Below are positions 1 to 58,851 of a stretch of DNA of 64,000 bases, piece after piece. This DNA is from Chiloscyllium plagiosum (taxonomy: Eukaryota), in assembly GCF_004010195.1 (NCBI RefSeq), contig NC_057718.1, positions 9,029,664-9,093,663 of the forward strand. The letters run 5' to 3'. How positions within the stretch are numbered: position 1 is the stretch's first letter; each line of letters begins with the position of its first letter. The translations under genes were made by a program, and so were the position numbers. The notes below the pieces were generated by a model. That model made no database searches, had not been told where the DNA came from, and saw nothing but the letters and a program-made list of their open reading frames with translations.

Positions 1-280
1 GTCAAATCCATCGAATTCAGCACCGCCTTCCTAACCTGCAATCTTCTTCCCGACCTCTCCGCCCCCCCCCCAGTCTGACCTATCATCCTCACCTTGACCT
101 CTTTCCACCTATCACATTTCCGACACCCCTCCCCCAAGTCCCTCCTCCCTATCTTTTATCTTAGCCTGCTGGACCAACTGTCCTCATTCCTGAAGAAGGG
201 CTAATGCCCGAAACGTCGATTCTCCTGTTCCCTAGATGCTGCCTGACCTGCTGCGCTTTTCCAGCAACACATTTCCATCT
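1..280 (+). mobile_element. PLE terminal repeat (pLTR), family A, window-truncated
   Basis: C/T-rich tract, then hammerhead motif and GATGCTGCCTGACCTGCTGCGCTTTTCCAGCAAC. The same sequence recurs about 10 times in the window, several times with TSDs. No family-A coding region was seen, so the PLE assignment is by analogy to families B, C and E. Confidence 0.75.
186..221 (+). ncRNA. Minimal type-I hammerhead ribozyme motif (family A)
   Basis: CUGAAGA 190-196; stem II GGGC-UAAU-GCCC 198-209; GAAA 210-213; CG-UC 214-217; short stem I (UC/GA). Confidence 0.7.
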
Positions 281-427
281 CTCCCTCTTTATGGGCATTT
301 AAACGGGCATTGGATAGGCATATGGAGGATAGTGGGCTAGTGTAGGTTAGGTGGGCTTGGATCGGCGCAACATCGAGGGCCAATGGGCCTGTACTGTGCT
401 GTATTCTTCTATGTTCTATGTTCTATA
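281..427 (+). mobile_element. CR1 LINE 3' end, (TATGTTC)n-tailed family
   Basis: AFKRALDRHME-type RT C-terminus and CTATGTT tandem tail. Near-identical to 5293-5565 (-). Confidence 0.8.
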
Positions 428-2034
428 AGTTAGGACCTTTTTCAAAATAGCTGATACACATTAAAAGCAATAAGTCCCAACACACCTTCCACAGATTGGT
501 GAGGTTAATGAGTTTCACTTGTATATACACATGGTTGCACTATTTTAACCAGATTCTTACAATCCTTTTACAGCTTTAATCTCAGACTTAAGTGTAACAA
601 TCGATTGCAACACAGTTTATTGCAATAGCATCAAATACATTTTCCCCAGGTGGTAACTCCTGAACATATGCAGTCATAAACTCCACATTAGAGTTCGCTA
701 TCACAGTGATTTCAAGTGTTCCTAGTTAACTGAGCATGGGCAGACACTGATTTATGAAAATGTAACTTATGAATGCTAATACTTACAAATGAGATCCCAT
801 GCAGGGGTGTATGGATATTAGCTTTAAAAATCTGACATGCTAACCTTTCCTTGTACTTACCACCAACTATTTGATATTGTCCTGCATTGTGTTCTGACTT
901 GCGCACAAATCGACTTATGAACACACTCAAGAATGCAACCCAATTGCAAGGTGGGGACTGCCTGTGTACTTTTACTGACAAGCCATAGAATCAGAAGGGA
1001 AAAGCAGAAGTGAGCCGTTCAGCCCATTGATTTGATGAGCTCATGACTGATATGATAATCCTCAATCCCACTTTCCTGCCTTTTCCCTATAACCCTTGAT
1101 TCCTTTACTGCTTAAAAATCCATCTATTTCAGCTTTGAATTTATTTAACGACACAGCCTTGCTAGCCCTCTGTGGTAGAAAATTCCACAGATAAAGTTTA
1201 CCTCAGTTTCTACACTGACAATCTTTGTTGCTTCCCTCCCTCTAAGTCAGCTGACCTCACATCTCCCATATCTTGCAGTCTCCTTGTAGTTTGCGTCCCT
1301 TTCACAATGTGTAAGTTATAATACTGCTTTCCCTTAATCCTCTTTGTAAAACAAGACTATATTGTTGTACTCTGTAAGATTTCTACTTGTACCTAAGATG
1401 GCACCAGTGTAAGGCAGCCATTATAAAAGACTTTTCACTGTGCTTCTGTACTTCTGAACTGGAGAACAAGTGACGATAAAGTATATTCTAACGTATTCTA
1501 TTCTCTCCCCATACATCCCTGCAGTCTTCCTGCATTACTATGCAACTTCCTCCTCTCTCTGCTCCCTTTTGAAACTTCTTCCTTCTCCTATCATCTTTGC
1601 TTCCTCTTTCTTTATTTCCACCTCCTTTAAGAACTCTTTCTCCACCCCAGTGTACACCCACATCCCGAAAGGTGGTCTCCCTGCCTCCCCACCTCCCAGC
1701 ATCCCCCACAAACTCCCCCTCCACATTTCTCTCCGCTGGGACAGGCTGTTTCTCTCCCTGCTGACAGGTTCATAACAAACTAATGACCCAAGGAGTCCAA
1801 ACAAGGGGTCACAGTCTGAGAGTGCGAGTAAACCATTTAGGAATGAGCTGAGGAGAAATGTCTTCACCCAGAAAGTGGCAAGCCTGTGGATTTCTCTGCC
1901 ACAAGGCCGAAATATTGTATGATTTCAAGAAGGAGTGAGGTATAACACTGAAGGGATCAATGGAGACTGGAGGAGAACCAGGAAGAGGCTATTGAATTGG
2001 ATGATGGACAATCATCATAAGATTTATACAATTA

Positions 2035-3645: not shown

Positions 3646-3647
<2 letters not shown>

Positions 3648-5644: not shown

Positions 5645-6582
5645 TGAAGAAGGTTACCTTGATCAGATGGGAAAAAGTGAGGACTGCAGATGCTGGAGAC
5701 CAGAGTTGAAAAGTGTGGTGCTGGAAAAACACAGCAGGCCAGGCAGCATCCGAGGAGCAGGAGAATCGACGTTTCGGGCATAAGCTTGGATCAGATGGAC
5801 CAGTGGGCCGAATATTGGCAGATCGAGTTTAATTCAGATAAATGTGAGAAGTTGCATTTTGGTAAGACGAACCAGGGCAGGACTTATACAGTTAACGGTC
5901 GGGCCCTGGGAATGTTGTTGAACACAGAGACCTGAGGGTGCAGATATACATAGTTCCTAGAAAGTGGCATCACAGGTAAACAGGGTGGTGCAGAAGGCAT
6001 TTGGTACACTTGCCTTCATTGGTCAGAACATTGAGTATAGGAGGTGGGACAGCTATACAAAACATTGATAATGGGACACGTGAAATACTGCACATAATTC
6101 TGGTCACCTTGCTGTAGAAAGCTGTTATTAAACTGGAAAGGGTGCAAAGAAAGACTTACAAAACTGTTACAAAGACTGAAAGGAGAAGCTGGATTGGCTG
6201 GGACTTTTTTTCCCTGGAACGGAGGAAGCTGAGGGGTGACCTGATAGAGATTTATACAATCATGACGGCATACATAAAGTGAATACCCTTTTCCGCAGGG
6301 TAGGATAGTCCAAGCATAGAGGGCATAGGTTTAAGGTGAAAGGGGAAAGATTTAAAAGGGACCTAAAGGGCAACGTTTTCTCACAGATGGTGGTGCATGT
6401 ATGGAATGAGCTGCCAGAAGAAGTGGTAGAGACGGGTACAATTACAACATTTAAAACGCATCTGAATGGGTATATGGTAGGAAGGGTTAAAGGGATACGG
6501 GCCAAATGCAACCCAGTTCAGTTTAGGACATCTGTTCGGCATGGATGAGTTGGGCCAAAGGGACTGCTGTATGACTCTATGA
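5645..6582 (+). mobile_element. CR1 LINE 3' fragment interrupted by a family A pLTR fragment (about 5671-5785, -)
   Basis: WQIEFNSDKCEKLHFG and VWNELPEEVVE motifs; GATCAGATGG duplicated around the insert. Confidence 0.88.
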
Positions 6583-6807: not shown

Positions 6808-6939
6808 GGAGAAAGTGAGGACGGCAGATGCTGGAGATTAGAGTCAAGAGTACGGTGCTGGAAAAGCACAGCAGGTCAGGCAGCATCTGAGGAGCAGGAG
6901 AGTCAACATTTTGGACAAAAGCCCTTCATTAGAAATGTT
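6808..6939 (-). mobile_element. PLE pLTR family A insertion with 15-bp TSD
   Basis: TSD CTTATTCTGAATGTA at 6793-6807 and 6940-6954; hammerhead core decayed. Confidence 0.85.
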
Positions 6940-7804
6940 CTTATTCTGAATGTACCAACTAACTAAGCATCTAGAACTCCTCAGGGTACAAGGATTTGCA
7001 AGATTCTTCACCCTTCAGGTGTAGAAATATCTCCACATCAGAGTCCAAATGGATATGCATCCGACCCCCCACCACTCTTGTCCTGAGACCATGCCCCAAG
7101 TGGTAGACTTCCCAGTGATACAGAAACAGCCTCCCAACATCTAGCCTGTCAGAATCATAAAGAATTTTTTATCAGTCATTCATATTGAAATTGACCCTAT
7201 TTGAGATTACTCTATTCCACAAATTCCATTTCAGAATTCCAATCAGAGTACTTTCTCCTCAGCCAAAGCAGAATGATATACTTTACACTCGGTCCGATAT
7301 GAAGAATCAGTAAGGGACCTTTGCACACGTAAAATAGCATCATTGTAAACAATCTGTACATGTTATGAATTAAAGACTGACAGCTATGTGTGCTTTTTTC
7401 AAAATAACTGTTGATGCCCTAATTCAAGGAATTATAATATTGAACCAAGACATTCTTTATATCACCAGAACAATTAGCTTTCCTCTCTTTTTTAAATTCT
7501 ACCCATTTTATGGCAATTTTGGACATTCTGTAATGCTAAAAACACTGCCTGGAGTGAACTGGTGTTGCCCTGGGAGCTAAATGGATACCCTGCATGTTCC
7601 AACACTGTTTCTCATTTCTATTGAGTATTCTATGTTTGTTCATGTAACCTCCTGCAAATCCCAGTGCATATTTTCTTAAGATTAAGGAGCAAGCGTAGAC
7701 AATCGAGCCCCTCACTCATGCTCTGCCATCTAACACAATAATGGTTGATCTCTTCACACTTCAACTCCACTTCCCTGCCCATTCCTCATTGATCTTTAAC
7801 TCAT

Positions 7805-9284: not shown

Positions 9285-10540
9285 GTCATCTAAATGGAGA
9301 GAAACTCCAGAGTGCTTTAGAGCAGAGGGACAAAAACAAAAGTTGCTGGAAAAGCTCAGCAGGTCTGGCAGCATCTGTGGAGAGAAATCAGAGTTGACGT
9401 TTCAAGTCCAGTGACTCTTGTTTAGAACTGATGGTAGCTCGAAAAATGCTGGTTTATACGCGGAAAATCGGGTTGGGGGAGGGGTTAAGGAGTGAATGAT
9501 AGGTGGGGATAGAGCCCAAAGAGAGAGAACAGCAGTTAGACAGACAAAGGAGTGGAGAACAATCCAGCTAGGAGGGTGAATAACTACAAGTGGGGACAGT
9601 AGCTATTCACCTTCCTAGCCTGATACTAATTCACTCCTTTGTCTGTCTAACTGTTCCTCTATCTCTCTTTGGGCTCCATCCCCACCTATCGTTCACTCCT
9701 TAATCCCTCCCCCAACCCGACCTTCTGCATATAAACTGGCATTTTCCTGGCCACCATCAGTTAAAGTGACTTGACCCAAAGCGTTAACTCTGATTTCTCT
9801 CCACAGATGCTTTTCCAGCAATTTCTGTTTTTGTTCCCGATTGGCAGCATCTGCAGTTCTTTAGAGAAGAGTGATCTGAATGTCCCTTTGCATGAATCAC
9901 AGAAAGCTAGTTCTCAGGTCCAGCAGGTAATAAGGAGAGCAAAGGGAAGTTTGACATTTATTGCCATGGGAATAGAGTATTAAAGCAGGGAGGTGTTGCT
10001 GCAACTGTACAAGGCAGCAGTGAGACCATACCTGGAGTATTGTGTACAAATTTGGTCTCCTTACTGGAGGAAGGATGTAGTTGTATTGAAAGTAGTTCAG
10101 AGGAGGTTCAATAGTTTGATTCCAGAGATGAGGGGTTTGTCTTATGAAGAGCAATTGAGCAGTTTAAGCCCCTACTCTCTGGAGTTTAGCCAAATGAGCG
10201 GCTGGAAGTTCAGTGAATGCACAAGCTACAACCCCTCAGATGATCTCATCATCTCTAAGCCACACAAAGATGGCACAGTTTCTTAGTCATTCTAATGTTC
10301 AGGCAATGTCCATCTCCACCAGGAGAGGTACATAACTTGCTAAAGGGGATTGACAAAGTAGACATAGAGAGGATATTTCTTCATTTGGAACAATCTAGAA
10401 CGAGAGGTCATAGTTTTAGGATAAGGGGTATCTGACTTAAAACAGAGAGGAGGAGAAATTCCTTTTCTCAAAGGGTCCCTTATCCTCAAAGGGAATGTGG
10501 AGTTCATTCCCCGGAGTGTAGAGGATGCTGGGGCACTGGC
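9285..10540 (+). mobile_element. CR1 LINE RT fragment interrupted by two insertions
   Basis: LLQLYKAAVRPYLEYCVQIWSPY motif; sequence continuous across the inserts at 9331-9858 and 10200-10327. Confidence 0.85.
9331..9858. mobile_element. Palindromic PLE pLTR insertion (family E), about 530 bp
   Basis: Two inverted arms meeting near 9590-9600. TSD CTTTAGAGCAGAGGGA 9315-9330 / CTTTAGAGAAGAGTGA 9859-9874. Arms match the pLTR downstream of the GIY-YIG remnant at 21203-22165. Confidence 0.85.
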
Positions 10541-10559: not shown

Positions 10560-10766
10560 AAATCACACAACACCAGGTTAGAGTCCAACAGGTCTATCTG
10601 GAAGGACTAGTTTTCGGAGCACTGCTCCTTCGTCAGGTAGCTAACTGACAAAGGAACAGTGCTCTGAAAGCTAGTGCCTCCAAATAAACCTGTCGGACTA
10701 TAACCTGGTATTGAGTGATTTTTAACTTTGTCCACCCCAGTCCAACACCAGCACCTCCACATCATC
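10560..10766. mobile_element. Palindromic PLE pLTR family B insertion
   Basis: Inverted arms ATCACACAACACCAGGTT...AACCTGGTATTGAGTGAT. Minus strand reads CUGACGA-GGAGC/GCUCC-GAAA. Flanks ACAATAAAGCT / ACAATAAAAGCT. Confidence 0.85.
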
Positions 10767-10975: not shown

Positions 10976-11140
10976 ACAAAACAAACTGTAGACGCTGGAA
11001 TCTAAAGTAGACAAGCAGCAGGCAGCAGCAAGTGGCGGAGAAGTCAATGTTTCTGAAGAAGGATGACATCTGAAACGTTGACATCTCCACCTCCTGATGC
11101 TACCTGGCCTGCTGTGTTCTTCCAGCCTCCTGCTTGTCTC
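10976..11140. mobile_element. Short inverted-repeat pLTR-like insertion (family D) with hammerhead-like core
   Basis: AGACAAGCAG...CTGCTTGTCT inverted arms; CUGAAGA 11053-11059, GAAA-CG-UU 11072-11079; degenerate TSD CCCTGGT. Confidence 0.6.
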
Positions 11141-21202: not shown

Positions 21203-22165
21203 TTAGCTGCAATTTCCACCCCTCCAGCAGGATGCCACTACTAGACACTTATTCCCCTCCCCTCCTTTGTCAGCCTTCCACTCCCTCCAGTACACCCTGG
21301 TCCACTCCCCTTTCCCTCCAACAGCCACTCCCGCCTCACCCCACAGCCCGACAGCACCTTCCCCTGCAATGCAGAAGATGTAACACCTGCCCGTTTAACT
21401 TCCTCCCTCCTCAGTATCCAAGGGCCCAAACACACCTTCCAGGTGAAGCAGCACTTTACCTGCACTTCCTTCAATCTATTTACTGATTCACTGCTCGCAA
21501 CATGGTCTCCTCTCCACTGGGGAAATGAAGCTCAGACTGGGTGACTGTTTTGCAGAACAGCTGTGTTCTGCCCACAAAAAAAAAGACCCTGAGCTTCCAG
21601 TTGCCTGCCACTTTAACATCCCACACTGTTCCCCAGCCAATATCCCTGTCTGAGGCTTGTTGCAGTGTTCCAGTGAAGCTCAGCACAAGCTGGAAGAACA
21701 GCACCTTATTTTCCACTTGGGGAATCTCCAGCCTTCTGCACTCAATATCGAGTTCAACAATGTTAGGGCTTGAGACACCTTCTCCCATGCCCTTAATCTA
21801 ACCCTGATACACCAGGCTTCATTATCACATGGGCTGCTATCACATACAACCCATTGTTAGCCACTAACAGTTCCCATTAGTCACTATTCATTCTCCCAGC
21901 CTGATCATTACCCACTCCTTTGTCTGTCCAACTGTTCTTCTCTCTCATTGGGCTCTATCCCTACCTATTGTTTATTCCTTATCTCCTATCTTCTGTTTAA
22001 AAACCAACCTTTTCCGAGCTGCCATCAGTTATGAAAGAGGGTCACTGGACGCGAGACGTTGACTCTGATTTTTCTCCATGGATGCTGCCCGACCTGCTGA
22101 GCTTTTCGAGCGATTTCTATTTTTGTTTCTGATTTACAGCATTCGCAATTCTTTCGGTTTTTTAC
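21203..22165 (+). mobile_element. Penelope-like element (Neptune-type) 3' remnant: Cys linker, GIY-YIG endonuclease, pLTR family E
   Basis: Frameshifted TFPCN-RRCNTCPF, FQVKQHFTCTS, HCSQHGLLSTGE-K-RLGD-FAE; pLTR with decayed hammerhead at about 22029-22062. Confidence 0.8.
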
Positions 22166-23320
22166 AAAAATGAGGCTATTTCATTTTGGGCTTACAGAAG
22201 CTGTTAGATTATTGTTTGCAAGGGAATTAAGTCCTGTGGATGTCCATCTAATAATGGCCTCCAATATTGTTTGAATGTGCTGTTCTTCAGAGTCATATCA
22301 TCTTGGCATTGGTTTGCTAAACATCTGGATATGAATTGCTCCATCACTGATGGTCAGCTGCCGAGATCCAAATCTTTGGAATTTCCTCCCTAAATATCCC
22401 TGCCTTTCTACTTCACTCTAAGGAGCATCGTAAAATCCAAAACTTTGTCCAGGTATTCCGCCTCTACCACAGTATCTCCGCATATAGCTCAATGTCAAAC
22501 TCTGATATTTAACACTCCCATAAAATCAATGTCTGTCACTTTGGCTTTGTAGCTAATGAGCAAGTGAGGAAACTGAGCCACTATATTACATCAAAGATAT
22601 CATATAAATGCAAGTTATGTAGTTGGATTCCTTCTGGAGTCACTCTATTGATATTAATTCCAGGCAAAGTAAAATAAAAGAGAAATTTGCTTACAGTGAC
22701 ACTATTCATCTCTGCTAGAATGAAAAGGATTGGGAGCTGCCCCACCAAACATACCAGGAAATCAGAAAATCTGGTGGCCTAAGACCTTTTTCTACAATTA
22801 GTTGTCTTATTTAGCAGTCATTCACTCATTGCTCTTTATCACTGGCCTTGCTGTAGAGTGAGTTGGGACTTCTGTTTGCTATAGTTCACAGGGATTAGTT
22901 TAAATACTTCTGTTGATTCTGCTTGGCTGGATGGGGAGGGAGGGTGGGGTCTGTGAGAATAAATTGATGCTGACCGCATGGGGCTTGCATTCTCTATTCT
23001 AGCTGGAGGAGGATCTGGGAGCTAGCTCCTTCCCTTGCCCTTGGTGGGAGTTATGTGCTACAGGTTGACCTGCTATTGGGCAGAGAACAGAGGAAGATAA
23101 TTTACTGCAATGCATTGTTTCAATAGACAAGGTAGATTGCTTGCTTTGGTGTGCTGTTTAAATAGACACTGTAGACAGTTTGGAGTTTAAATAGACAGTA
23201 TCGACAGTTTGGTGTTTAAATAGACTGTGTAGACTATTTGGTGTTTAGATTCTGTAGACTGTTTGGTATTTAAATATCACACAACACCAGGTTATAGTCC
23301 AACAAGTTTAATTGAAAACA

Positions 23321-23355: not shown

Positions 23356-23393
23356 ATAGTGGAGGGCTCAAAGTGGATTGAGTCCTCCACTAC

Positions 23394-27228: not shown

Positions 27229-27229
27229 T

Positions 27230-36306: not shown

Positions 36307-36475
36307 CATGATTTGGAGATACCGATGTTGGACTGGGGTGTATAAAGTTATAAATCACACAACACCAGGTTATAGTCCAACAGGTTTAATTGGAAGCACT
36401 AGCTTTCGGAGCATCACTCCTTCATCCTGATGAAGGACCGGCGCTCCGAAAGCTAGTGCTTCCAATTAAACCTGT
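36307..36475. mobile_element. Palindromic pLTR family B insertion
   Basis: TSD CAGAATAAC(G/A)TT 36295-36306 / 36476-36487; + strand CUGAUGA 36427-36433, GAAA 36448-36451. Confidence 0.88.
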
Positions 36476-38569
36476 CAGAATAACATTGACTGGGATGGGC
36501 CCCCCGCCTCTATGATACCGACTAGTCTCTATAGACCTCAATCATCCCAATGGAAAACGCATACTGGCTGTTGATGAAGATCCGAGCACAGACATAACCA
36601 GGAAAGAGGGGCACAATGACACCTTCTGCAGTCTACTGCCTGGAACTGTTAGTAACTACAGAATGAAAATCCATTGCTGGAGAAACTCAGCAGTCTGGCA
36701 GTATCTGTGAAGTGAAAGCAGAGCCTATGTTTTGGGTCTGGTAACCCTCCTTCAGAACTGGCCACTGGCTACTTTGGCCAAGCCCAGGAATAGCCCGACG
36801 AGGAGACCCTCTGACCTGCCAGCACCTCCCTGCTCCAACTCATCTACTCTCCCCTCACATAGGCTTGAAAGCTCCCTTCGAACAAGGTGGAGGGAAACGG
36901 TGTTCACCTCACTACACTCCTCCTTCCCCACCCCACTATACTGGCCAACATTTACCCCTCAACAAAAACAGACTGAACACTACCAAATTGCTGCTGTGGG
37001 ATCTTGCTGTGCTGCCTTTTCCAATACTGCAGCAGCGACTGGATTTTGACGGCACTTTGTGAGGTACTGAGGCACTGTGGAAAAAGCAGGTTTTCTATCA
37101 GGTTTAAATGGACAGTAAGTGTCATCACCCTGAGTGCTGTTGGATTCTTTAAGAACGGCAAGTTCTGTCCACTGCCATCATGGGTCAGTTTATATTGAAG
37201 GGTCCGCTGTGTGCCCAGAATCCACACGGCAGGAAAATGCCAAGAAACCTGAAATCAAATCATGTGGGCATTTTGTCTCACAGAGCTCATGCAATTCTGC
37301 TCTCCCCAGGTCCTCTTAAAACCTTCCTATGTTCCTAAGGTTGTCTTTGGCTCAATTTTCACCAACTTGTTAAAAGGTTTGCTTTATCATCTAGGCTCAG
37401 ATTTCGTTGCGGTGTTGCAGGAGTACTGCGTTGCCAGAGATGCTTTATTGTAGGTGCCTGATCAGCTTGACTGGGAGGAAGCAAGGATAGCAGGATAAGA
37501 CCAAATGGGCTGAAAAGCCAGCCTTGTCATCCTTAGGCATTCGCAAAGCTGGCGCATCATCGACATAGCAGACGCAATCCTTCCAGATTGTTCTGAAAGC
37601 TGCCATTATCATAATTAGGTTGTAATATAATCTTCCTTTTTTATGCAGCTTCGCATACTCTGCAGCCAGCAGTGTACCTGGCTAAGAACAAAACATCATG
37701 AACGCCTGATAATTTAATTCACAGCAGTCAGCATCTGTGTGCTTTGAAATCTTTCAGGACACACATTATAAAGGCGAGAGAAACATTCAGTGGCTTGTGG
37801 CAGTCCTTATGGATTTCCCCACTTCCTCCATCAGCCCCAGACATTCAGGGTGTCTGAACACTGTGCATGAGGCAACTGTCCAGGCAGTTGTGACATACAC
37901 CCAGCTTTACAACAAAGATAAATCTCTGCAGAGGTTTCACACACTCACTGGCAGCTCTGTGGGAAGCATCCTCACATCCCATCCCTCTCGAGGACCCAAT
38001 TACTGTGACGCTGACTGATCCATCGACTGACATTTTATTCCATGGATCTGTGCAGGAATAGAGTCATAGGGCCCCTACAGCACAGAGACAGGCCCTTCGG
38101 CCCATCTGACCAAACTGTCCGCCCGCACTAACCCCATTTCCCTGAACTTGGCCCACATCCATTTCAACCTTTCCTAGAATGGCTTCATGTAAATGTGAAT
38201 GAATTCCTGGGTTATGCTGTGATGTAGCTGTGATCGAAATAGTCATGTGATGGGTCTCTGCTAGAAAGTTGGAACCAGCGCACCTCGGAGAAGTGAGCTA
38301 TTATCAGGTACATGCTGTTAATCAGTATTGTTTAAAACATACGAAACATTCTAATTCAAGCTTGTACGAAAAACAGAAGAACCAAAATTAAAGAAATGTG
38401 GGGAATATTTTACTTATAACACAGTATATAGGAGTGTTCACCCTGTCAAGTCTGCGCTACCATTCAATGAGATCATGACTGATCTGATAACCCTTACTCC
38501 ACATTCCCGCCTTTTCCCCATAAACCTTGATCCCTTTACTGATTAAAAATCTGTCTATCTCAACCTTTG

Positions 38570-39652: not shown

Positions 39653-40569
39653 CTTACTGAAAGAAAGAACAGGGTCAGGGCTGAATGGCCTCCTCCCAAT
39701 CTTATATTCACCCAGAAACAATAAATGGACAGCTGGCTGGATGAGAACTCTGGAACTAGATGTGAATACCCTTCTTGATTGGTCATTTAGAGAATGCAGC
39801 GTTAGATATCCCTGCCTTCTACCAGTAATCTCCCTTTACACTCTTTCAGCTGAACTCAACTGCTCCTTACAGCAGCATTGTAACAGAAGCAGGCATTTCA
39901 ATGCAAACTAAACTAAAATGCTATTCCCAAGGCAAACAATGCCCTATAGCAGTCCCTCTTTATATGTGCTCAAGATAGTTCATTAATCAATACCTTCCCA
40001 CCAGTTTATCCTTAAATTTAATGACTCAGTTGACATAATCATAACATGGTAGGCAGCAGAAAAGCAGAGGGAATATTTTAATTTTGATATTGACACAAGA
40101 CTAGGTGGGAATTCAGGTTCGAAGGAGGGCACAACAAGGCTTCAAGAGAGTTTGAACAGGCTACTCAAATGGGCTAGAACACAGCAGATGGAATATAATG
40201 TAAGTGAGAGTGAAGTTATGTTCTTTAGTAATCAAAAACCAAAAAAAAACACAGTGTTTATTGAACAGTGAAAGGTTTGGAAGTATCGGGGTCCAGAGGG
40301 ACCTGCATTGCCTTTGCTCATGAGTCACTGAAAGCTTAATGCAGATGCATCAAGCAATGAGGATGGCATATTGTCACAGGAGGAAAGGTGTTTTGCTACA
40401 GAACAGACATCACTGGAAAATCTCAGCAGATCTGGTAGCATCTGTGGAGAGAAATCACAAAATGACATCACCATAGGAAATGACCTCACCACAAGAAATG
40501 GAACAACCCAAGGAAACTTAAATACATTAATATAAAGCCAGCTACACCACCAGTGCTTCATCCGGAGGC

Positions 40570-40609
40570 TCACTGAAGATGTTACCTAGTATGGTGACGA
40601 AACATCTGA
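40570..40609 (+). ncRNA. Minimal hammerhead ribozyme motif (family C) in a pLTR fragment at about 40460-40650
   Basis: UCA-CUGAAGA-U-GUUACC-UAGUAU-GGUGAC-GAAA-CA-UC-UGA. Confidence 0.78.
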
Positions 40610-41577
40610 AAACAACCTTTCCAGCTCAACAAGCAAACCTATATCTAGAAGTCAGAGTTGACTCTTCCTCAGAACTGATGTCTTGTTACAGTTGTATAAA
40701 GCCTTGGTGGGAATGCACTTCCTTATTTAAGGAAGGATTGAAATTTCCTAATTAACATGTTCAGAGATGTTATGACACACCTTGATAGCAGGTAGGGCTT
40801 GAACCCAGGTTCCTGTTTCAGATGGGGGGACACTAGCACTGCAGCACAAGAGTCCCTTCCAAAGAAGGGTAGACTTGACCTTGAGGGAATGCAACAGAAA
40901 TTACCTTGGGGAATAGAGGGACAGTCTTCTGGGGAGAGATTGAAGAAACACACAGGACGTGACATGGTGGACAAGGATATGATATTTCCCCTGGTTGGTG
41001 AGTGTAGAGTTTCAGAAGAAGGGATAGGTGATTGGGCACATAAATAAGGAGGAGGAATTTCTTCACTCTGAGGGTGGTAAGTCTTTGGGAATTCTCTGTC
41101 GCAGATATCTGAGAACCTTGGTCACTGATATATTTTCAAGGCAAAAAACAAATGAGAAGGCGCACTGGAGATATGGGGATAATGCAGGGAAGTCACCTTG
41201 AGGTCAGTGATCAACCCTAATATTCTGGAATACTAGGTTCAAGGGGCTGAATGACCTATTCCTGCTCCTATTCTTGATGTTCCCACATTCTCATGATTGG
41301 AGCTATAATCAACTATTAAAGCTCAGATCAATATTGAACCTGCAGCCTTCCTTAGTCTATGAGCACCAACCACTCAACAGCAGCCTGCATGCATATTGCA
41401 TTTTTAATCTAGGAAGAGCAAATCCTGAGGGACTTTGCTGCATTGTAATCAGGCAACGTTCACTCAGAAATGTAAAGATATGTCAAGACAGCCTGGTAAA
41501 AGAGGTAGGAAGGTGTGCCTTACAAGAGGAAGATGAGGCAGAAAGAAGAAAAGGTTTGGTCCCTGAGCTGGGACCGT

Positions 41578-47050: not shown

Positions 47051-48383
47051 AGAAAATCTCACCATCTCACCATCGCTGCTGGGAAATATGAGTGCCAGCA
47101 TTGAAAGCTGTGGAAAACCTTCACTCTCCTGAATCCCCTCAACAACACCCCCCTTCCCCTACACACACCATCCAACACCCCTCCCCCACAAGCCCTGGCC
47201 TATGGAAAGCCCCAGGAACCATGGTGTGATGCTAATGGGCTGTAACAAAGGCCTCAGTTTTATTGGCTAAAGGACCATCAAGACTGAGAAATCGTTCCAC
47301 TGAAACCTTCCTTGTTTGTTGTTCTTTCTACATTACACGAAATGATAGGCACTGGCAGAGTAAGCGTTCTCCTTCCAACCTTCAGCTCCCACTTAAATAT
47401 TAACAAAACAATGGCCTTATAGTACATGGATTTAGAAATGGCAGATCAATGGTTAATAGCAACAAGACCATAGTCTGAGGGAAAATTCACTCTGAGTCAT
47501 CAACATGAGGTACAGTCAGATCAGCCATGACCTCACTGAGTGACAAGGCAGGATCAATAGGGTGAATGACTTGCTTCTATTTCTCACGCTGCTGTGATCT
47601 GGTATCTACACTCCTCCCTACACCCCTCCCCTTGTCACCAACTCTACACCCTCCATTTTAACCATTGCACCATGGTGGGTGCGGGATCTGGTGGAGCCCA
47701 GAGTGCTGGGCTTGCCTCCCTCAACCCCTGCACCTCTCTCTCCCTCTTTCTCTCGCCTCCTTTAAAGCCTTCTTGAAAAACTCATCACTTTTTCAAAACG
47801 CTTGGTTAGCATTGCCTCATTAAGTGGCTGGGTGTCAGATCTTTAACGAACATAAGGCGCCCTGGGGCATTTTGCTCAGTTAGTGGTGATTTTTCAATGC
47901 AATCTGCTCTGGTTGTTATATGGAATTCCAAAGATCCCAATGATGGATCCACACATGTAGTAATCAAGACCATAAAACACAGGAGCAAATGTAGGCCACT
48001 CAGCCCATCGAGTCTGCTCTGCTATTCAGTGAGATCATGGCAGATCTGATAATCCTGAACTCTGCTTTCCTGCCTTTTCCCCATTACCCTTGATTCCCTT
48101 TCTAATTAAAAATCTGCCTTGAATATACCTAATGATTCAGCCTTGACACCTTCCATGGTAAAGAATTCCAGATATTTATTACCCTTGAGAAAAGAGATTC
48201 TTCCTCATCTCTGTTTTAAATGGGCGACCGTTTATTCTGAGATTCAGTCCATGGTTCCTGGACTCTCCCACAAGGGGAAGCAATCTTTTAAATGTATTAA
48301 CCTCTCAGAAGTGATATCACCCACCATAGCAGACAAAGACAGATAAACAGCAGACAAGACAGAACATCAGTGCTTCCGGAGGC

Positions 48384-48423
48384 TCACTGATGATGTTACC
48401 CAGCATGGTGACGAAACGTCTGA
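48384..48423 (+). ncRNA. Minimal hammerhead ribozyme motif (family C), best-preserved copy
   Basis: UCA-CUGAUGA(48387-48393)-U-GUUACC-CAGCAU-GGUGAC-GAAA(48413-48416)-CG-UC-UGA; predicted cleavage after C48420 (GUC triplet). Confidence 0.82.
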
Positions 48424-49500
48424 AAACAAACCTTCCAGCTCAGCGAGCAAACCTACAACCTGAACTACAAATCTTCTCCAAAATTGCATGCAACCACAAC
48501 CGCATCTTCCCTACTTAATTAGTTGGGTTCTTTAGATAGATCTGCTCATCTAAGACTGGAGAGGCCACAGAGGACAAAAAGGTCATATTCAGTTTAAGGT
48601 ACATGGAAAGACTTTCCATTTTAATATTTCTGACAAAATCACACCTGGAAACCTGTTGCAGGTAGAAAACCACTGTTAAGCTGGGAGAATAGAAGGTTTG
48701 GAAATTTATAAAAAGCTTGTCTCAATCCCCACTTCTGACGTTATGATATAGGGAAGGTCATTGATGAAGAGGGTGAAGATGGTTAGGTCTAGGAGGCTAC
48801 CCTGAGGAGCTCCTGCTTGGATGGTCTGGAGCTGAGATGACCTGGGTATAAACTTGTGACCAGAGGCTACAGTTATTCTGCACATTAGCACCCTAGACAA
48901 TGGCTGTGTCTGGGCTTCACTCTGCAATGCCTGTACTAGTTTACCTGCTCATAAAACCACCAGATGGCTATAAGGAAATAGTATCCATTCACTTCGGTTG
49001 TACTGCCTTCAGATAGAACAAGAGCATCATTACAGCACGTCTCATCTTGTTTTCATGTTCCATAGTATCTTGTCTTTGTGCCCGCTCCTCCTTGATGGTC
49101 TCTCAAACTTACCGTCTCCTTTCTTTCATGGTTACACCAACAGCATCCAACAGAGGGCGCTGTTGCATTGCAGACCACACACCAGAGCCGGCCATCCTGA
49201 GGCTCCCTCTCCCATTGCCACCAACTCCCTGTCACCAAAATGCCCGTTTTCCTGGGCACGAGGGAAATGGAGAGATGATGTTGTGCTAATGGCACTGGGT
49301 GAATAATCCAGGGGCAATCCAGGCTGATGTTCTGGAGGCCAGGTGTTGAGGGAATATTGAGACATTTGAATATAATGAAAATATGGAATTAAAAGCTAGC
49401 CTAATGGCAACCATTGTTCATTGTCATAAAACTCATCTGTTTAACAAATGGCCTCTAGGGAAGGAAATTTGTCATCCTTACCAGGTCTGGGCCTACATGT

Positions 49501-51249: not shown

Positions 51250-51404
51250 AGTCTGTGTCTTATGATCTTATACTCCACAACCACCTGATGAAGGGGCGGC
51301 GCTCCGAAAGCTAGTGCTTCCAAATAAACCTGTTGGATTATAACCTGGTGTCGTGTGATTTTTAACTTTGCCCACCCCAGTCCAATACTAGCTCCTCCAC
51401 ATCA
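51250..51404 (+). mobile_element. PLE pLTR family B with hammerhead motif (51282-51316)
   Basis: CAC-CUGAUGA(51285-51291)-A-GGGGC-GGC-GCUCC-GAAA(51306-51309)-GC-UA-GUG. Confidence 0.85.
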
Positions 51405-54533: not shown

Positions 54534-57042
54534 GTTAAAAATCACACAACACCAGGTCATAATCCAACAGGTTTAACTGGAAGCTTTCAGAGTGACGGTC
54601 CTTCATCAGGTGATAGTGGAGGGCTCAATCCTAACTCAGAATTTATAGCAAAAATTTACAGTGTGATGTAACTGAAATTATACATTGAAAAATTGATTGT
54701 CTGTTAAGCCTTTCATCTGTCAGAATACAGTATTAGTTTCACTTCTTTCATGTGTAAATCACAAAACCTTTTTTTTAAAAAGTTGCATTCTCGGGTTAGC
54801 TGTTAACAATGGTGATAGCTAGACAATATGTTGAAGGTGTTGGCCCCCTGTGTTCTCTGTCTATGACCTGATGTTTAGATTGATTCTAATCTAAAAAGTG
54901 AGATAACAGTTTTACATAAATTCATCCAGTTTTTGAGCTCAGAGTTCTACATGAATGCATGCAGTTTTTGAGCAAAGTACAATGTAACCCTGCAAGTACA
55001 AATTCACCCCACAAAATATATGTGTGCATGTGGGTCTTTGNNNNNNNNNNNNNNNNNNNNNNNNNNNNNNNNNNNNNNNNNNNNNNNNNNNNNNNNNNNN
55101 NNNNNNNNNNNNNNNNNNNNNNNNNNNNNNNNNNNNNNNNNNNNNNNNNNNNNNNNNNNNNNNNNNNNNNNNNNNNNNNNNNNNNNNNNNNNNNNNNNNN
55201 NNNNNNNNNNNNNNNNNNNNNNNNNNNNNNNNNNNNNNNNNNNNNNNNNNNNNNNNNNNNNNNNNNNNNNNNNNNNNNNNNNNNNNNTGTGTACCTGTGT
55301 CCGTGTGTATGTGAGAGTGTGTGTGTGTAGGAATATCGGTGTGTGTGTGTAGTGCAATGGTGATCACCTGTAATGTGACATGAGCCCAAGGTCCCGGTTG
55401 AGGCCCTCCCTATGGGTACCGAACTTAGCTATCAGCCTCTGCTCGGCCACTTTTCTCTGCTGCCTGTCCCAAAGTCCACCTTGGAGGATGGTCACCCAAA
55501 GGTCTGAGGCTGAATGTCCTGGACCAACTGGGAGGGAACCCTCCTGTCTGTTTATTGTTGTGCGGTGCCCATTCATCCGTTGTAGCCTTTGCTCGGTTTC
55601 CCCAATGTACCATGCCTCCGGGCATCCTTGCCTGCAACGTATAAGATAGACAACGTTGGCTGAGTCACATGAGTACCTGCCATGTACAAGGTGGGAGGTA
55701 TCCCCACACGTAATGGTGGTATCTATGACCACACTCTGACATGTCTTGCAGAGAGAAAGTGCGGGCTGCAGAAGCTGGAGATCAGAGCTGAAAATGTGTT
55801 GCTGGAAAAGCGCAGCAGGTCAGGCAGCATCCAAGGAACAGGAGAATCGACGTTTCGGGCATAAGCCTGAAGAAGGGCTTATGCCCGAAACGTCAATTCT
55901 CCTGTTCCTTGGATGCTGCCTAACCTGCTGCACTTTTCCAGCAACACATTTTCAGCTCATGTCTTGCAGAGCCTACCGTGACAGGGGTGCATGTAGTTGT
56001 CCTGAGAGCCGGGCAGCTTGCTACAAACAACGATCTGTTTGAGGTCTGGTGGTTGTTTAAAGGCAAGTAGTGGAGGTGTGGGGAAGGTCTTGGTGAGGTG
56101 CTTGTCCTCATTGATAATGTGTTGCAGGTCACGAAGAACATGGCGTAATGTTTCAACTCCTGGGAAATACTGAACAACAAAAGGTACCCTGTCGAATGCA
56201 GCACGTGTCTGTCTCCTGAGGAAGTCATTACAGTTCCTAGCTGTGGCACATCAGAACTGGAGGTCGATGAGTTGGGCATCGTACCCCGTTCTTGTGAGGG
56301 CATCCCTGAGTACTTTCAGGTGTCCGTCACATTCCTCCTCATCTGAGCAGATCCAGTGTATGTGTAGGGCTTGTCCATAGGGGATGGCTGTTTTAATATG
56401 TTTTGGGTGGAAGCTGGAGAAGTGTAGCATTGTGAGGTTGTCTGTGGGTTTGCGGTAGNNNNNNNNNNNNNNNNNNNNNNNNNNNNNNNNNNNNNNNNNN
56501 NNNNNNNNNNNNNNNNNNNNNNNNNNNNNNNNNNNNNNNNNNNNNNNNNNNNNNNAGTCGAGAGTAGTCCATGGTGAGTTTGATGGTGGGATGAAACTTG
56601 TTGATGTCACTGTGTAGTTTTATCAGTGACTCCTCGCCATGGGTCCAGAGGAAGAAAATGTCATCAATGTACCTGGTGTACAATGTCGGTTGGAGATCCT
56701 GCATAGAGAAGAAATCTTGTTCGAACCTGTGCATGAAGATGTTGGCATATTGCGGTGCAAATTTGGTCCCCATGGCTGTTCCGTGTGTCTGGATGAAGAA
56801 CTGGTTGTCAAAGGTGAAGACGTAGTGATCAAGGATAAAGCGGATGAGTTGTAGGATGGTGTTTGGAGACTGGCAGTTGTTGGTGTTGAGTACTGAGGCT
56901 GTTGCCGCGATGCCATCATTGTGGGGGATGCTGGTGTAGAGCGCGGAAACATCCATTGTGACGAGGAATGTTCCCGGTTCGACTGGTCCATGGGTGTAAG
57001 AAATCCGTCGTGTCGCAACAGAACACCGGTATCTCCAAATCA
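54534..57042 (-). mobile_element. 5'-truncated Neptune-type Penelope-like element (RT, Cys linker, GIY-YIG, (CA)n-containing UTR, pLTR family B)
   Basis: RT: TMDVSALYTSIPH, GTAMGTKFAPQYANIFM, RYIDDIFFLW. Linker PCHGRLCKTC. GIY-YIG: NVVYLIRCRQGCPEAWYIGET. 13-bp TSD TATCCTATCCATG 54521-54533 / 57043-57055. Confidence 0.93.
55754..55957. mobile_element. Palindromic pLTR family A insertion inside the Neptune PLE
   Basis: 14-bp TSD CATGTCTTGCAGAG 55740-55753 / 55958-55971; CUGAAGA 55867-55873, GAAA-CG-UC 55887-55894. Confidence 0.9.
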
Positions 57043-58000
57043 TATCCTATCCATGCCCCTCATGATTTTGTAAACCTCTATAAAGTCACCCCTCAGCCTC
57101 CGATGCTCCAGGGAAAACAACCCCAGCTTGTTCAGCCTCTTCCTATAGCTCAAATCCTCCAACCCTGGTGACATCCTTGTAAATCTTTTCTGAACCCTTT
57201 CAAGTTTCACAACATCTTTCCGATAGCAAGGAGACCAGACTTGCACGCAATATTCCAACAGTGGCATAGCCAATGTTCTGTACATCTGGAACATGACCTC
57301 CCAACTCCTTTACTCAATACTCTGACCGATAAAGGAAAGCATACCAAATGCCTTCTTCACTATCCTATCTACCTGCGACTCCACTTTAAAGGAGCAACAC
57401 TCCCTAGGACCTTACCATTAAGTGTATAAGTCATGCTAAGATTTGCTTTCCCAAAATGCAGCACCTCGCATTTATCTGAATTAAACTCCATCTGCCACTT
57501 CTTGGCCCATTGGCCCATCTGGTCAAGATCCTGTCGTAATCTGAGGTAATCCTCTTCTTCAAAGAGGATTACATCTCCAATTTTGGTGTCATCTGCAAAC
57601 TTACTAACGATATCTCTTATGCTCGCATCCAAATCATTTATGTAAATGACAAAAAGTATTGGACCCAGCACCGATCCTTGTGGCACTCCACTGGTCACAG
57701 GCCTCCAGTCTGAAAAACAACCCTCCGTCACCACCCTCTGTCTTCGACCTTTGAGCCAGTTCTGTATCCAAATGGCTAGTTCTCCCTGTATTCCATAAGA
57801 TCTAACCTTGCTAACCAGTCTCCCATGGGGAACCTTGTTGAACGCCTTCCTGATGTCCATATAGATCACATCTACTGCTCTGCCCTCATCAATCCTCTTT
57901 GTTACTTCTTCAAAAAACTCAATCATGTTTGTGAGACATGATTGTGAGACAGAAAGTCATGTTGACGATCCCTAATCAGTCCTTGCCTTTCCAAATATAT

Positions 58001-58851
58001 GAGGTAAAAACAATGACTGCAGATGCTGGAAACCAGATTCTGGATTAGAGTGGTGCTGGAAAAGCACAGCAGTTCAGGCAGCATCCGAGGAGCAGGAAAA
58101 TGGACATTTCAGGCAAAAGCCCCTCTAGTCCTTTCCAAATAGGGAATAAAATCTAATCTAATCTTTAAATGGGCAGCACGGTGGCACAGTGGTTAGCACT
58201 GTTGCCTCACAGCGCCAGAGACCCGGGTTCAATTCCCACCTCAGGCGATTGACTGTGTGGAGTTTGCACATTCTCCTGTGTCTATGTGGGTTTCCTCCCA
58301 CAGTCCAAAGATGCGCATGTTAGGTGAATTGGCTGTGCTAAATTACCATTCAGGGATGGGTAGGTGAGGTACGTTAGTTATGAGGTAAAAACAAGGACTG
58401 CAGATGCTGGAAACCAGATTCTGGATTAGAGTGGTGCTGGAAAAGCACAGCAGTTCAGGCAGCATCCGAGGAGCAGGAAAATCGACGTTTCGGGCAAAAG
58501 CCCCTCTAGTCCTTTCCAAATAGGGAATAAAATCTAATCTAATCTTTAAATGGGCAGCACGGTGGCACAGTGGTTAGCACTGTTGCCTCACAGTGCCAGA
58601 GACCCGGATTCAATTCCCGCCTCAGGCGATTGATTGTGTGGAGTTTGCACATTCTCCCCGTGTTTGCGTGGGTTTCCTCCCACAGTCCAAAAATGTGCAG
58701 GTTAGGTGAATTGACCATGCTAAATTTCCCATAGTGTTAGGTGAATGGGTGAAATGTAGAGGAATGGGTCTGGGTGGGTTGCGCTTCGGCGGGTCGGTGT
58801 GGACTTGTTGGGCCGAAGGGCCTGTGTCCACACTGTAAGTAATCTAATCTA
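58001..58851. repeat. Tandem duplication (period 381 bp) of [family A pLTR fragment + spacer + HE1 SINE]
   Basis: GAGGTAAAAACAA at 58001 and 58382; HE1 heads at about 58170 and 58552. Confidence 0.88.

What the first reader, a model, noticed from the sequence alone, without database searches (positions are those of the whole stretch)
186..58503. Window-wide set of hammerhead ribozymes carried by several Penelope-like terminal-repeat families
Seen: about a dozen copies keep the catalytic core CUGANGA...GAAA-NN-UH, and more are decayed. They fall in otherwise dissimilar repeat families: A (190, 20975, 26037-26070 minus, 27144, 27771, 55867), B (about 10606-10637 minus, 23321 minus, 23397, 36427, 51285), C (31848, 40573, 48387), D (11053) and decayed E (about 22029). 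The core is conserved while stems change and stay paired (stem I UCA/UGA, GCA/UGC, CAC/GUG; stem II GGGC/GCCC, GGAGC/GCUCC, GUUACC/GGUGAC). Families B, C and E sit directly 3' of GIY-YIG remnants. Established: Penelope-like elements encode minimal type-I hammerheads in their pLTRs. Inference: this lineage has several co-existing ribozyme-bearing PLE families at high density, likely invisible to ordinary annotation.
Basis: partly seen in the sequence, partly recalled or inferred. Interest (0 to 1): 0.8.

Follow-up and report, generated by a model that had tools for sequence, protein, structure and literature searches.

The report
Hammerhead ribozymes in Penelope-like retrotransposon tails
The window is littered with small hammerhead ribozyme motifs that sit near the 3' ends of several families of Penelope-like retrotransposons, a known association that here reaches an unusually high copy number.

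Summary
Confirmed. A strict descriptor finds 8 against 0 in 300 shuffles. They show the published hallmarks of the minimal hammerhead of Penelope-like elements (PLEs): one unpaired base after A9, a G10.1-C11.1 pair, a 2-4 bp open helix I, and a palindromic ACGU or AGCU in place of helix III.

Stems covary between families while the core stays fixed. Each family lies 40-62 nt from the element's 3' end and downstream of a GIY-YIG (and, for family B, reverse transcriptase) reading frame. Insertions are 5'-truncated, often carry an inverted 5' arm, and have a 35-38 nt tail at one end. All of these are PLE traits.

Genome-wide counts are A 175,382, B 57,241, C 45,214 and E 8,100. Rfam sees none of them.

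Corrections: A, D and E are one superfamily, not dissimilar families. Most copies are dead solo or head-to-head fragments, so they are poorly placed to dimerise. Cleavage was not tested.

Side observation: about 70% of family A copies begin 1-7 nt upstream of the ribozyme.

This is a known kind with new members.

The parts
181..226 (+). Family A minimal hammerhead, intact core (helix II GGGC/GCCC, GAAA-CG-UC)
   Evidence: model R1 70.1 bits
20966..21011 (+). Family A hammerhead, intact core; copy begins 4 nt upstream of C3
27135..27180 (+). Family A hammerhead, intact core, joined to a short inverted arm (hairpin 27107-27225)
27571..27616 (-).
27762..27807 (+). Family A hammerhead, intact core
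55858..55903 (+). Family A hammerhead, intact core; with the truncated inverted arm 55840-55877(-) it forms hairpin 55817-55926
10599..10645 (-). Family B hammerhead (helix II GGAGC/GCUCC; 15.2 changed to A)
23315..23361 (-). Family B hammerhead, intact (helix I CAC/GUG, GAAA-GC-UA)
23388..23434 (+). Family B hammerhead, intact core; head-to-head with 23315-23361, together a 106-nt near-perfect hairpin (23322-23427)
36418..36464 (+). Family B hammerhead, helix II weakened, with an inverted arm upstream
51276..51322 (+). Family B hammerhead, intact core
54572..54618 (-).
31839..31890 (+). Family C2 hammerhead (helix II GUCACC/GGGGAC with one A.G mismatch, helix I GCA/UGC)
40564..40615 (+). Family C1 hammerhead (helix II GUUACC/GGUGAC, helix I UCA/UGA)
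48378..48429 (+). Family C1 hammerhead, fully intact
11044..11088 (+). Family D hammerhead (a diverged relative of A; helix II GGAU/AUCU), preceded by an inverted arm
25576..25648 (.). Head-to-head pair of decayed family A copies (G12 changed to A in the minus arm; plus arm starts inside helix II)
26031..26103 (.). Head-to-head pair of family A copies (minus arm has a complete core with one helix II mismatch)
5759..5797 (-). Family A copy, 5'-truncated inside helix II
6896..6941 (-). Decayed family A hammerhead (G5 and G12 lost)
33819..33864 (+). Decayed family A hammerhead
58094..58134 (-). Family A copy truncated within box 1; one of two copies 381 bp apart
58475..58515 (-). Family A copy truncated within box 1; second of the two copies
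9387..9434 (-). Family E hammerhead remnant (box 1 decayed; helix II GAGUC/GACUU)
22020..22075 (+). Family E hammerhead remnant (box 1 and GAAA decayed)
36717..36764 (-). Decayed D/E-like hammerhead remnant
55367..55819 (-). C-terminal end of a PLE reading frame (CxxC linker and GIY-YIG-like domain), upstream of B copy 54609(-)
31196..31420 (+). GIY-YIG-region remnant of the family C PLE frame, 428 nt upstream of C 31848
21447..21770 (+). Decayed GIY-YIG remnant (one in-frame stop) upstream of E 22036

Best explanation
These are minimal type-I hammerhead ribozyme motifs of the kind carried by endonuclease-positive Penelope-like retrotransposons. At least three PLE lineages in this genome (A/D/E, B and C1/C2) each keep one such motif in the untranslated 3' region. 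It lies downstream of the RT/GIY-YIG reading frame and 40-62 nt upstream of the element's 3' end. The window copies are mostly dead insertions: 5'-truncated 3' ends, often with an inverted 5' arm.

Inferred, not shown: the motif acts only in the RNA of active source elements. Two copies would pair through the palindromic ACGU or AGCU to build helix III, and the RNA would cut itself after H17, probably slowly and with help from the element's own protein. Selection on source elements would then explain why the core is fixed while the stems covary between lineages.

Solo and head-to-head genomic copies are poorly placed to form the sense-sense dimer (inferred). I therefore do not expect most of the roughly 286,000 genomic copies to be active ribozymes.
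For: Core and architecture:
- 16 family copies have the intact core.
- The strict descriptor gives 8 against 0 of 300 shuffles.

Features the first search did not ask for but that emerged:
- One unpaired A or U after A9 in 15 of 16 copies.
- G10.1-C11.1 in 13 of 16.
- 15.2/16.2 reads CG or GC in 10 of 16; the other six read UG, CA or AC.
- These match the four hallmarks listed in PMC4209133.

Covariation between families (96 motifs from the window and 73 loci; lists):
- 10.2-11.2 is G-C or U-A.
- 10.3-11.3 is G-C, A-U, C-G or U.G.
- 10.4-11.4 is C-G, G-C, A-U or U-A.
- Helix I 1.1-2.1 is G-C, U-A or A-U.
- 1.3-2.3 switches between A-U and G-C within C1.
- Flanks between A, B and C align no better than random sequence.

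Link to PLEs:
- Pfam GIY-YIG scores 23.2 bits (cut-off 22.6) 159 nt upstream of an A copy.
- RVT_1 scores 35.2 bits (cut-off 29.6) in a 479-aa frame whose end matches the window's endonuclease remnant, upstream of a B copy.
- The nearest Atlas clusters carry RVT_1, GIY-YIG and HTH_animal, score 0.97.

Insertion anatomy as described for PLEs in PMC8557442:
- Target-site duplications of 8-15 bp.
- 5' truncation.
- An inverted 5' arm.
- A 35-38 nt tail on exactly one end in 12 of 12 evaluable palindromic A loci (read by eye).
- 9 of 9 close pairs are head-to-head.

Copy numbers, with reversed-pattern controls of 0.
Against: - No cleavage or RNA evidence was obtained.
- Rfam's hammerhead models do not match, even on 91-161 nt stretches at E up to 10.
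- Core identity between families is partly an artefact of searching with the core.
- Family A has only 2 contiguous helix I pairs (G-C, A-U, then U.U).
- The commonest C subfamily has an A.G mismatch in helix II (21 of 23 copies).
- Nearest-neighbour folding predicts helix II in 3 of 3 monomers. It predicts intermolecular pairs at the helix III C and G in only 1 of 3 homodimers.
- Published work found low in-vitro activity for such motifs (PMC4209133). It also found that the ribozyme of an Anolis PLE is not needed for insertion in vitro (PMC11167929, passages).
- PLE clades without the motif still proliferate (PMC8557442, passages).
Confidence: 0.85

Rival explanations
1. The conserved module is kept mainly as a protein-binding or template-recognition element for the PLE reverse transcriptase, or as a passenger that parasitises PLEs. 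The hammerhead-like core is retained but self-cleavage plays no part in the life cycle.
For: - The motif lies only 40-62 nt from the 3' end, where PLE reverse transcription starts (PMC11167929, passages).
- Inserted copies contain the uncut site: forward arms run through C17 into box 1 in all 30 A loci. This sample was chosen by a pattern that spans the site, so it could not have shown cut templates.
- Catalytic mutants did not affect insertion in vitro, and no reads ended at the cut site, in the Anolis element (PMC11167929).
- Craig et al. raise the 'HHRs simply parasitize PLEs' idea (PMC8557442).
Against: - A binding site alone does not explain why exactly the 11 catalytic-core nucleotides, the G10.1-C11.1 pair and a cleavable H17 are kept. 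They are kept in three lineages whose stems and flanks have all changed.
- Related PLE hammerheads do cleave, weakly or with protein help (PMC4209133, PMC11167929).
Confidence: 0.1
2. The short family A units are not truncated PLEs but a separate non-autonomous element (a retrozyme- or SINE-like parasite) that borrowed the PLE 3' module.
For: - 19 of 29 evaluable A loci end 1-7 nt upstream of C3 (corrected by eye).
- The pattern extended 10 nt upstream matches 48,559 places; the pattern extended 10 nt downstream matches 175,382.
- A 2026 preprint argues that animal retrozymes derive from PLE terminal repeats (10.64898/2026.07.22.740005; abstract and results read).
Against: - The short units are identical in sequence to the 3' end of the longer copies that carry the GIY-YIG frame.
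- No head-to-tail arrays were seen: 0 close same-strand pairs among 100 listed places and 0 of 100.
- This rival concerns how the copies spread, not what the motif is.
Confidence: 0.04
3. Chance resemblance: a repeat family that happens to contain CTGANGA and GAAA at a suitable spacing.
For: The core boxes are short. Two isolated hits in the window (51113+, 7262-) are probably chance.
Against: - 0 strict hits in 300 shuffles.
- The same architecture recurs in three lineages with unrelated flanks, compensatory stem changes, and the same place relative to the GIY-YIG frame and the 3' end.
Confidence: 0.01

Closest known systems
Minimal hammerheads (min-HHR) of metazoan Penelope-like elements (Cervera & de la Pena 2014, PMC4209133)
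   Same: - Type I topology with a short open helix I.
- An unpaired base between A9 and 10.1.
- G10.1-C11.1.
- Helix III reduced to a palindromic 15.2-16.2 step, which implies dimers.
- Several consensus families per genome with covariation.
- Many solo copies and opposite-strand pairs.
- A location in PLE terminal regions.
   Different: - Helix II is 4-6 bp here, against 7-8 bp in the Schistosoma families.
- Copy number is far higher: about 286,000 summed over four families, against about 4,000 (coelacanth) and 9,000 (Xenopus) in that paper.
- Family A helix I is only 2 contiguous pairs, as in the D. virilis variant.
Hammerhead of the Poseidon element PAc of Anolis (PMC11167929, passages read)
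   Same: A PLE-borne minimal hammerhead close to the site where reverse transcription starts. That paper documents the tail signature at insertion ends.
   Different: In PAc the motif overlaps the start codon. Here it lies downstream of the stop codon, in the 3' untranslated region. Protein-assisted cleavage was shown there and is untested here.
Animal non-LTR retrozymes (PMC7229834, passages; bioRxiv 10.64898/2026.07.22.740005, abstract and results)
   Same: Non-coding units with a type I hammerhead, thought to be moved by PLEs, with high copy numbers (up to 120,000 in axolotl).
   Different: Retrozymes are head-to-tail tandem repeats of 150-450 bp with canonical loop-loop hammerheads, expressed as circular RNA. 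Here the copies are dispersed solo units or head-to-head palindromes with minimal hammerheads. Tandem arrays were not seen in the lists examined.
HDV-like ribozymes at the 5' end of non-LTR retrotransposons (recalled; cited in the closing paragraph of PMC4209133)
   Same: A self-cleaving ribozyme built into a retrotransposon transcript. If the family A 5'-end observation reflects a transcript start, the ribozyme would sit at the very 5' end, as in R2.
   Different: A different ribozyme class and element class. 5' processing is not shown here.

Membership tests
Hammerhead ribozyme, PLE minimal type I variant | Catalytic core C3 U4 G5 A6 N7 G8 A9 ... G12 A13 A14 A15.1 / U16.1 H17 | tested here: met
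   16 family copies in the window. The core was the search key, so this alone is weak. The strict descriptor gives 8 against 0 of 300 shuffles.
Hammerhead ribozyme, PLE minimal type I variant | Helix II hairpin closed by G10.1-C11.1, with compensatory changes between families | tested here: met
   G-C in 13 of 16 window copies (not required by that search). Pair types at 10.2, 10.3 and 10.4 differ between A, B, C1, C2, D and E while mostly staying paired. C2 has an A.G mismatch at 10.4 (lists).
Hammerhead ribozyme, PLE minimal type I variant | One unpaired nucleotide between A9 and 10.1 | tested here: met
   15 of 16 window copies. It is A in 68 of 68 parsed A and B motifs, and U in 26 of 27 C motifs.
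Hammerhead ribozyme, PLE minimal type I variant | Helix III reduced to A15.1-U16.1 plus a palindromic 15.2-16.2 (dimer-forming) | tested here: met
   CG (ACGU) or GC (AGCU) in 10 of 16 window copies, and in 87 of 95 parsed motifs of families A, B, C1 and C2. The remainder read UG, CA or AC.
Hammerhead ribozyme, PLE minimal type I variant | Short open helix I flanking the core | tested here: met
   B has CAC/GUG, C1 has UCA/UGA, C2 has GCA/UGC. E has 4 bp, judged from the decayed window copies. A has only 2 contiguous pairs.
Hammerhead ribozyme, PLE minimal type I variant | Site-specific self-cleavage after H17 | not testable with these tools
   This needs in-vitro transcription or RNA-end mapping.
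Rfam hammerhead families (Hammerhead_1, _3, _II, HH9, HH10; names recalled) | Match to a curated covariance model | tested here: not met
   No hammerhead hit at gathering score or at E up to 10, on 64 kb and on 161-nt and 91-nt stretches. Those models expect a real helix III (inference).
Penelope-like element, endonuclease-positive | Reverse transcriptase domain | tested here: met
   RVT_1 scores 35.2 bits (cut-off 29.6) in L032:3898-5334(-), upstream of a B hammerhead. It is not present beside the window copies, which are truncated.
Penelope-like element, endonuclease-positive | C-terminal GIY-YIG endonuclease in the same frame | tested here: met
   L062:935-1342 scores 23.2 bits (cut-off 22.6) for family A. 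Window 55367-55819(-) scores 15.5 bits, E 0.022, below the cut-off. The L032 place matches this remnant at 85% identity over residues 15-151, with one in-frame TAG in the match. The nearest Atlas clusters carry RVT_1 and GIY-YIG.
Penelope-like element, endonuclease-positive | 5'-truncated insertions, an adjacent inverted 5'-truncated copy, and a 30-40 bp tail at one end | tested here: met
   The tail is on one end only in 12 of 12 evaluable palindromic A loci, and 9 of 9 close pairs are head-to-head. Description in PMC8557442.
Penelope-like element, endonuclease-positive | Telomerase-like placement of the RT in a phylogeny; assignment to the Neptune, Poseidon or Nematis clade | not tested
   No reference PLE proteins were at hand, and many frames read N in the loci. 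A CxxC motif ahead of the GIY-YIG domain in the window remnant hints at the Neptune/Nematis type only.
Non-LTR retrozyme | Head-to-tail tandem arrays of 150-450 bp units, each with a canonical type I hammerhead | tested here: not met
   0 close same-strand pairs among 100 listed places and 0 of 100. One pair 355 bp apart appears among the 100 places. None was seen in the window.

The most novel reading that the evidence does not exclude
Family A spreads mainly as a unit of about 100-135 nt that starts 1-7 nt (most often 4) upstream of the hammerhead and ends at the PLE tail. That would put the ribozyme at the extreme 5' end of the template RNA.

The start falls on the A of TCATTCC, which fits the initiator consensus as I recall it. 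Each solo copy might therefore carry its own transcription start as well as the internal site where the PLE reverse transcriptase begins. That would make it a self-sufficient, SINE-like amplifier.

Snap-back at the helix II hairpin would then explain the tens of thousands of head-to-head palindromes. This could account for what may be one of the highest hammerhead densities reported for a genome: about 80 per Mb, against about 4 per Mb for axolotl retrozymes. The axolotl figure is my arithmetic from 120,000 copies (PMC7229834) in 28.21 Gbp (bioRxiv 10.64898/2026.07.22.740005).
Probability: 0.3. Interest if true: 0.55.

Novelty: new member of a known kind. Interest (0 to 1): 0.35.

Why it matters
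- **Annotation.** Rfam-based annotation misses every one of these motifs, so a genome with some 286,000 ribozyme-like sites would be reported as having none.
- **A natural experiment.** The families show which hammerhead positions tolerate change: three lineages with fixed cores and swapped stems.
- **Material for an open question.** They offer abundant material for asking what PLE hammerheads are for.
- **Hairpins.** The head-to-head insertions create very many near-perfect hairpins of 100-250 bp that score as microRNA-like. These could confuse small-RNA annotation or feed silencing pathways.
- **No new principle.** The association itself has been known since 2014.

Tried and rejected
- **Rfam.** Searches at gathering score and at E up to 10 gave no hammerhead family, only microRNA-like hits caused by inverted repeats.
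- **Alignment of all 16 motifs.** MAFFT misplaced GAAA in family B, so I parsed motifs by anchors in a script instead.
- **Covariance model.** A model built from 10 family A copies was too family-specific. It found B and D only at E 0.4-9 and C not at all. No general model was built.
- **Apparent strand bias.** The one search list showed 94 plus against 6 minus in the first 11 Mb of contig 1. This is a listing artefact: one search lists both strands in the same region, and the whole-genome totals are equal.
- **RNA evidence.** No RNA holder was listed. Nothing can be said on expression or cleavage.
- **Direct terminal repeats.** A pair of E copies 3,255 bp apart (L075) has no reading frame between them and looks like a duplication, so it is no example.
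- **Solved structures.** No hit for the 479-aa frame.
- **Long open frames.** Those reported are runs of withheld N. I did not pursue them.
- **Thermodynamic folding of dimers** was not informative.
- **Earlier findings of this scan.** None.
- **Literature hunch.** A search for 'hammerhead ribozyme' with 'shark', made because the tail motif looked familiar, found nothing relevant. I do not name the organism.
- **Pfam on the E remnant.** The call failed because of an in-frame stop. A pairwise comparison of the piece before the stop was used instead.


Full report
**Observation**

A plain search for CTGANGA, a helix II of at least 3 bp and GAAA gives 18 hits in the window. Sixteen belong to repeat families.

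| Family | Plus strand | Minus strand |
|---|---|---|
| A | 190, 20975, 27144, 27771, 55867 | 27607 |
| B | 23397, 36427, 51285 | 54609, 23352, 10636 |
| C | 31848, 40573, 48387 | none |
| D | 11053 | none |

- The other two hits (51113+, 7262-) have no family and look like chance.
Copies 27607(-) and 54609(-) were missed.
- A stricter descriptor asks for one bulged base, G10.1-C11.1, a helix II of 4 bp or more, a pairable 15.2/16.2 and U-H. It finds 8 hits, against 0 in each of 300 dinucleotide-preserving shuffles and 0 in the reversed sequence.
- The bare core pattern finds 17 against a shuffle mean of 0.86.
- blastn with one copy per family, inspection and a covariance model built on ten family A copies (14 matches at E below 1e-4) add about 13 decayed or truncated copies.
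- These include the E-type remnants at 9387-9434(-), about 22020-22075(+) and 36717-36764(-).

**What the motif looks like**

All families share one plan:

- a 2-4 bp open helix I;
- CUGANGA;
- one unpaired base (A in families A, B, D and E; U in C);
- a helix II that starts with G10.1-C11.1;
- GAAA, then two bases that read CG or GC;
- U and a cleavable H.

A15.1 to U16.1 therefore spell ACGU or AGCU. These are self-complementary, so helix III can only be built by two molecules pairing.

The first search did not ask for the bulge, the G-C closing pair or the palindrome, yet they emerged. They are the features that Cervera & de la Pena list as arguing against chance in PLE minimal hammerheads (PMC4209133, main text read, supplements not). 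That paper also describes short helix I, long helix II, dual motifs on opposite strands, and low in-vitro activity as dimers.

**Covariation**

I parsed 96 motifs from the window and 73 loci by anchoring on the core (the two loci that are the window's own region were left out). I added the E and D-like matches listed. The E column for helix I was read by eye from the two decayed window copies printed.

| Pair | A | B | C1 | C2 | D and E |
|---|---|---|---|---|---|
| 10.2-11.2 | G-C | G-C | U-A | U-A | G-C |
| 10.3-11.3 | G-C | A-U | U.G | C-G | G-C |
| 10.4-11.4 | C-G | G-C | A-U | A.G mismatch | U-A |
| 1.1-2.1 | G-C | G-C | U-A | U-A | A-U (E) |
| 1.2-2.2 | A-U | U-A | G-C | G-C | A-U (E) |
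| 1.3-2.3 | U.U | G-C | A-U or G-C | C-G | C-G (E) |

Points against:

- Family A has only two contiguous helix I pairs.
- The commonest C subfamily carries the A.G mismatch in 21 of 23 copies.
- Copies within a family are not independent, so the count that matters is the five or six lineages.

Between A, B and C the 56-60 nt flanks align at 0.40-0.57 identity. Random 60-mers from the window give a mean of 0.52 and a 95th percentile of 0.58. A-D (0.67 downstream) and C1-C2 (0.62-0.68) are related.

**What carries them**

*In the window:*

- A frame at 55367-55819(-) has a CxxC linker and a GIY-YIG-like domain (Pfam E 0.022, below the cut-off). It lies 758 nt upstream of B 54609(-), with an N run between them.
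- The piece 31196-31420(+) lies 428 nt upstream of C 31848.
- A decayed frame at 21447-21770(+) lies about 270 nt upstream of E 22036. It matches a family A endonuclease frame at 36% identity, E 2e-7.

*In the genome:*

- The two window peptides have 93,049 and 34,128 first-look candidates. 150 were scored in each case, all at E of 1e-36 or better.
- B hammerheads lie 302 and 726 nt downstream of frames of 421 and 479 aa. The longer frame has RVT_1 at 35.2 bits.
- A family A hammerhead lies 159 nt downstream of a frame that passes the Pfam GIY-YIG cut-off.
- C hammerheads lie about 60 nt downstream of long frames that read N, with an inverted hammerhead copy on the 5' side.
- The nearest Atlas clusters of the 479-aa frame carry RVT_1, GIY-YIG and HTH_animal (score 0.97).

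*Insertion anatomy.* It matches the PLE description in PMC8557442 (passages read), as seen:

- target-site duplications of 8-15 bp;
- variable 5' truncation;
- an inverted 5' arm in about half of the A loci;
- two alternative 3' ends that differ by a 35-38 nt tail.

The cleavage site lies 62 nt (A), 53 nt (B) or 40 nt (C2) from the short end. These distances are my count from the sequences printed in those calls. By eye, the tail is on exactly one end in 12 of 12 evaluable palindromic A loci. All 9 close pairs among the 100 places are head-to-head.

**Abundance**

Patterns of 29 or so specified bases, allowing up to 2 mismatches, match as follows. The reversed-pattern control gave 0 each time.

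| Family | Matches |
|---|---|
| A | 175,382 |
| B | 57,241 |
| C | 45,214 |
| E | 8,100 |
| D-like (up to 3 mismatches) | 35 |

The four larger families sum to 285,937 in 3.56 Gb. For comparison:

- PMC4209133 reports about 4,000 (coelacanth) and 9,000 (Xenopus).
- PMC7229834 (passages) reports up to 120,000 retrozyme copies in axolotl.
- The 2026 preprint gives 28.21 Gbp as the size of the axolotl genome.

I searched 'hammerhead' with 'Penelope-like' (37 papers) and did not see a higher figure in the papers I opened. That is not proof that none exists.

**How it most likely works**

*Shown here:*

- the motif architecture;
- its fixed place in the 3' region of three PLE lineages;
- covariation between lineages;
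- the dead, truncated state of most copies.

*Inferred from the literature:*

- In the RNA of active source elements two motifs pair through ACGU or AGCU, and the RNA cuts after H17.
- The cut is weak and probably protein-assisted (PMC4209133; PMC11167929).
- It may serve to process longer-than-unit transcripts.

*Against a needed role:*

- Catalytic mutants of the Anolis element still insert in vitro (PMC11167929).
- Clades that lack the motif thrive (PMC8557442).
- All 30 family A loci contain the uncut site. That sample was chosen by a pattern spanning the site, so it could not show otherwise.

Solo and head-to-head copies are poorly placed to give a sense-sense dimer on one transcript (inferred). 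A head-to-head pair instead folds into a long hairpin. Rfam reports these as microRNA-like.

**Side observation**

- Among 29 evaluable hammerhead-anchored A loci, 19 end 1-7 nt upstream of C3, most often at 4 nt. I corrected two loci by eye.
- Of the superfamily's forward arms in the window, found by their tails, 8 end at -5 to 0, 5 or 6 run further upstream and 3 end inside the ribozyme (by eye).
- Genome-wide, the pattern extended 10 nt upstream matches 48,559 places. The pattern extended 10 nt downstream matches 175,382 places.
- About 70% of A copies therefore stop just 5' of the ribozyme. Subfamily variation in the upstream ten bases may inflate this figure.
- C shows no such pile-up (0 of 12 loci). 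B shows 2 of 8 (by eye).
- A discrete RNA 5' end is the simplest cause. The site TCATTCC fits the initiator consensus as I recall it. This is a hypothesis only.

**Verdict**

This is a well-described kind of element (known since 2014) represented by new families at very high copy number. No evidence on catalysis was obtained.

Noticed in passing
window 20966-21011, 27135-27180, 55858-55903, 25576-25621(-), 26031-26076(-); loci L033-L062: The 5' ends of family A copies pile up 1-7 nt upstream of the hammerhead. This holds for 19 of 29 loci, and genome-wide 48,559 upstream-extended matches stand against 175,382 downstream-extended ones. The commonest unit is therefore a hammerhead-headed piece of about 100-135 nt. 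The start falls in TCATTCC, which looks initiator-like (consensus recalled).
   Followed up: partly
window 23322-23427, 55817-55926, 27107-27225, 9510-9675: Head-to-head retroelement arms form near-perfect hairpins of 100-170 nt. Rfam scores them as microRNA precursors below the gathering threshold (for example MIR2084 at 51 bits, E 3e-11, on the short stretch). The hairpin at 9510-9675 was not examined.
   Followed up: partly
window 14619-16909(-), 57372-60563(-), 30417-31115(+): LINE-type retrotransposon remnants with an AP-endonuclease (Exo_endo_phos) and RVT_1. They are unrelated to the PLE families.
   Followed up: no
window 58094-58134(-) and 58475-58515(-): Two family A copies, truncated at the same point and with the same upstream flank, lie 381 bp apart. 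They sit inside the LINE remnant, which suggests a local tandem duplication.
   Followed up: no
window 49650-50149, 55041-55287, 56459-56555; many loci (L029, L030, L042, L050, L058): Runs of N. In the loci they cover the PLE reading frames, which makes 'open frames' of over 1,000 aa in search tables an artefact.
   Followed up: yes
L006 (about 60 nt after the B hammerhead); L004, L074: Nested insertions: a tRNA-like SINE sequence cuts a B copy; an inverted A arm follows a B copy; a B copy follows a C copy at its short end.
   Followed up: no
The genome search list: The first 100 exact matches were 94 plus and 6 minus. This is a listing artefact and not a strand bias.
   Followed up: yes
The look-up of sequencing runs: Runs labelled with three other coded organisms hold 5-9% of the sampled words of window 20500-28500. 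This may mean related species share these repeat families.
   Followed up: no
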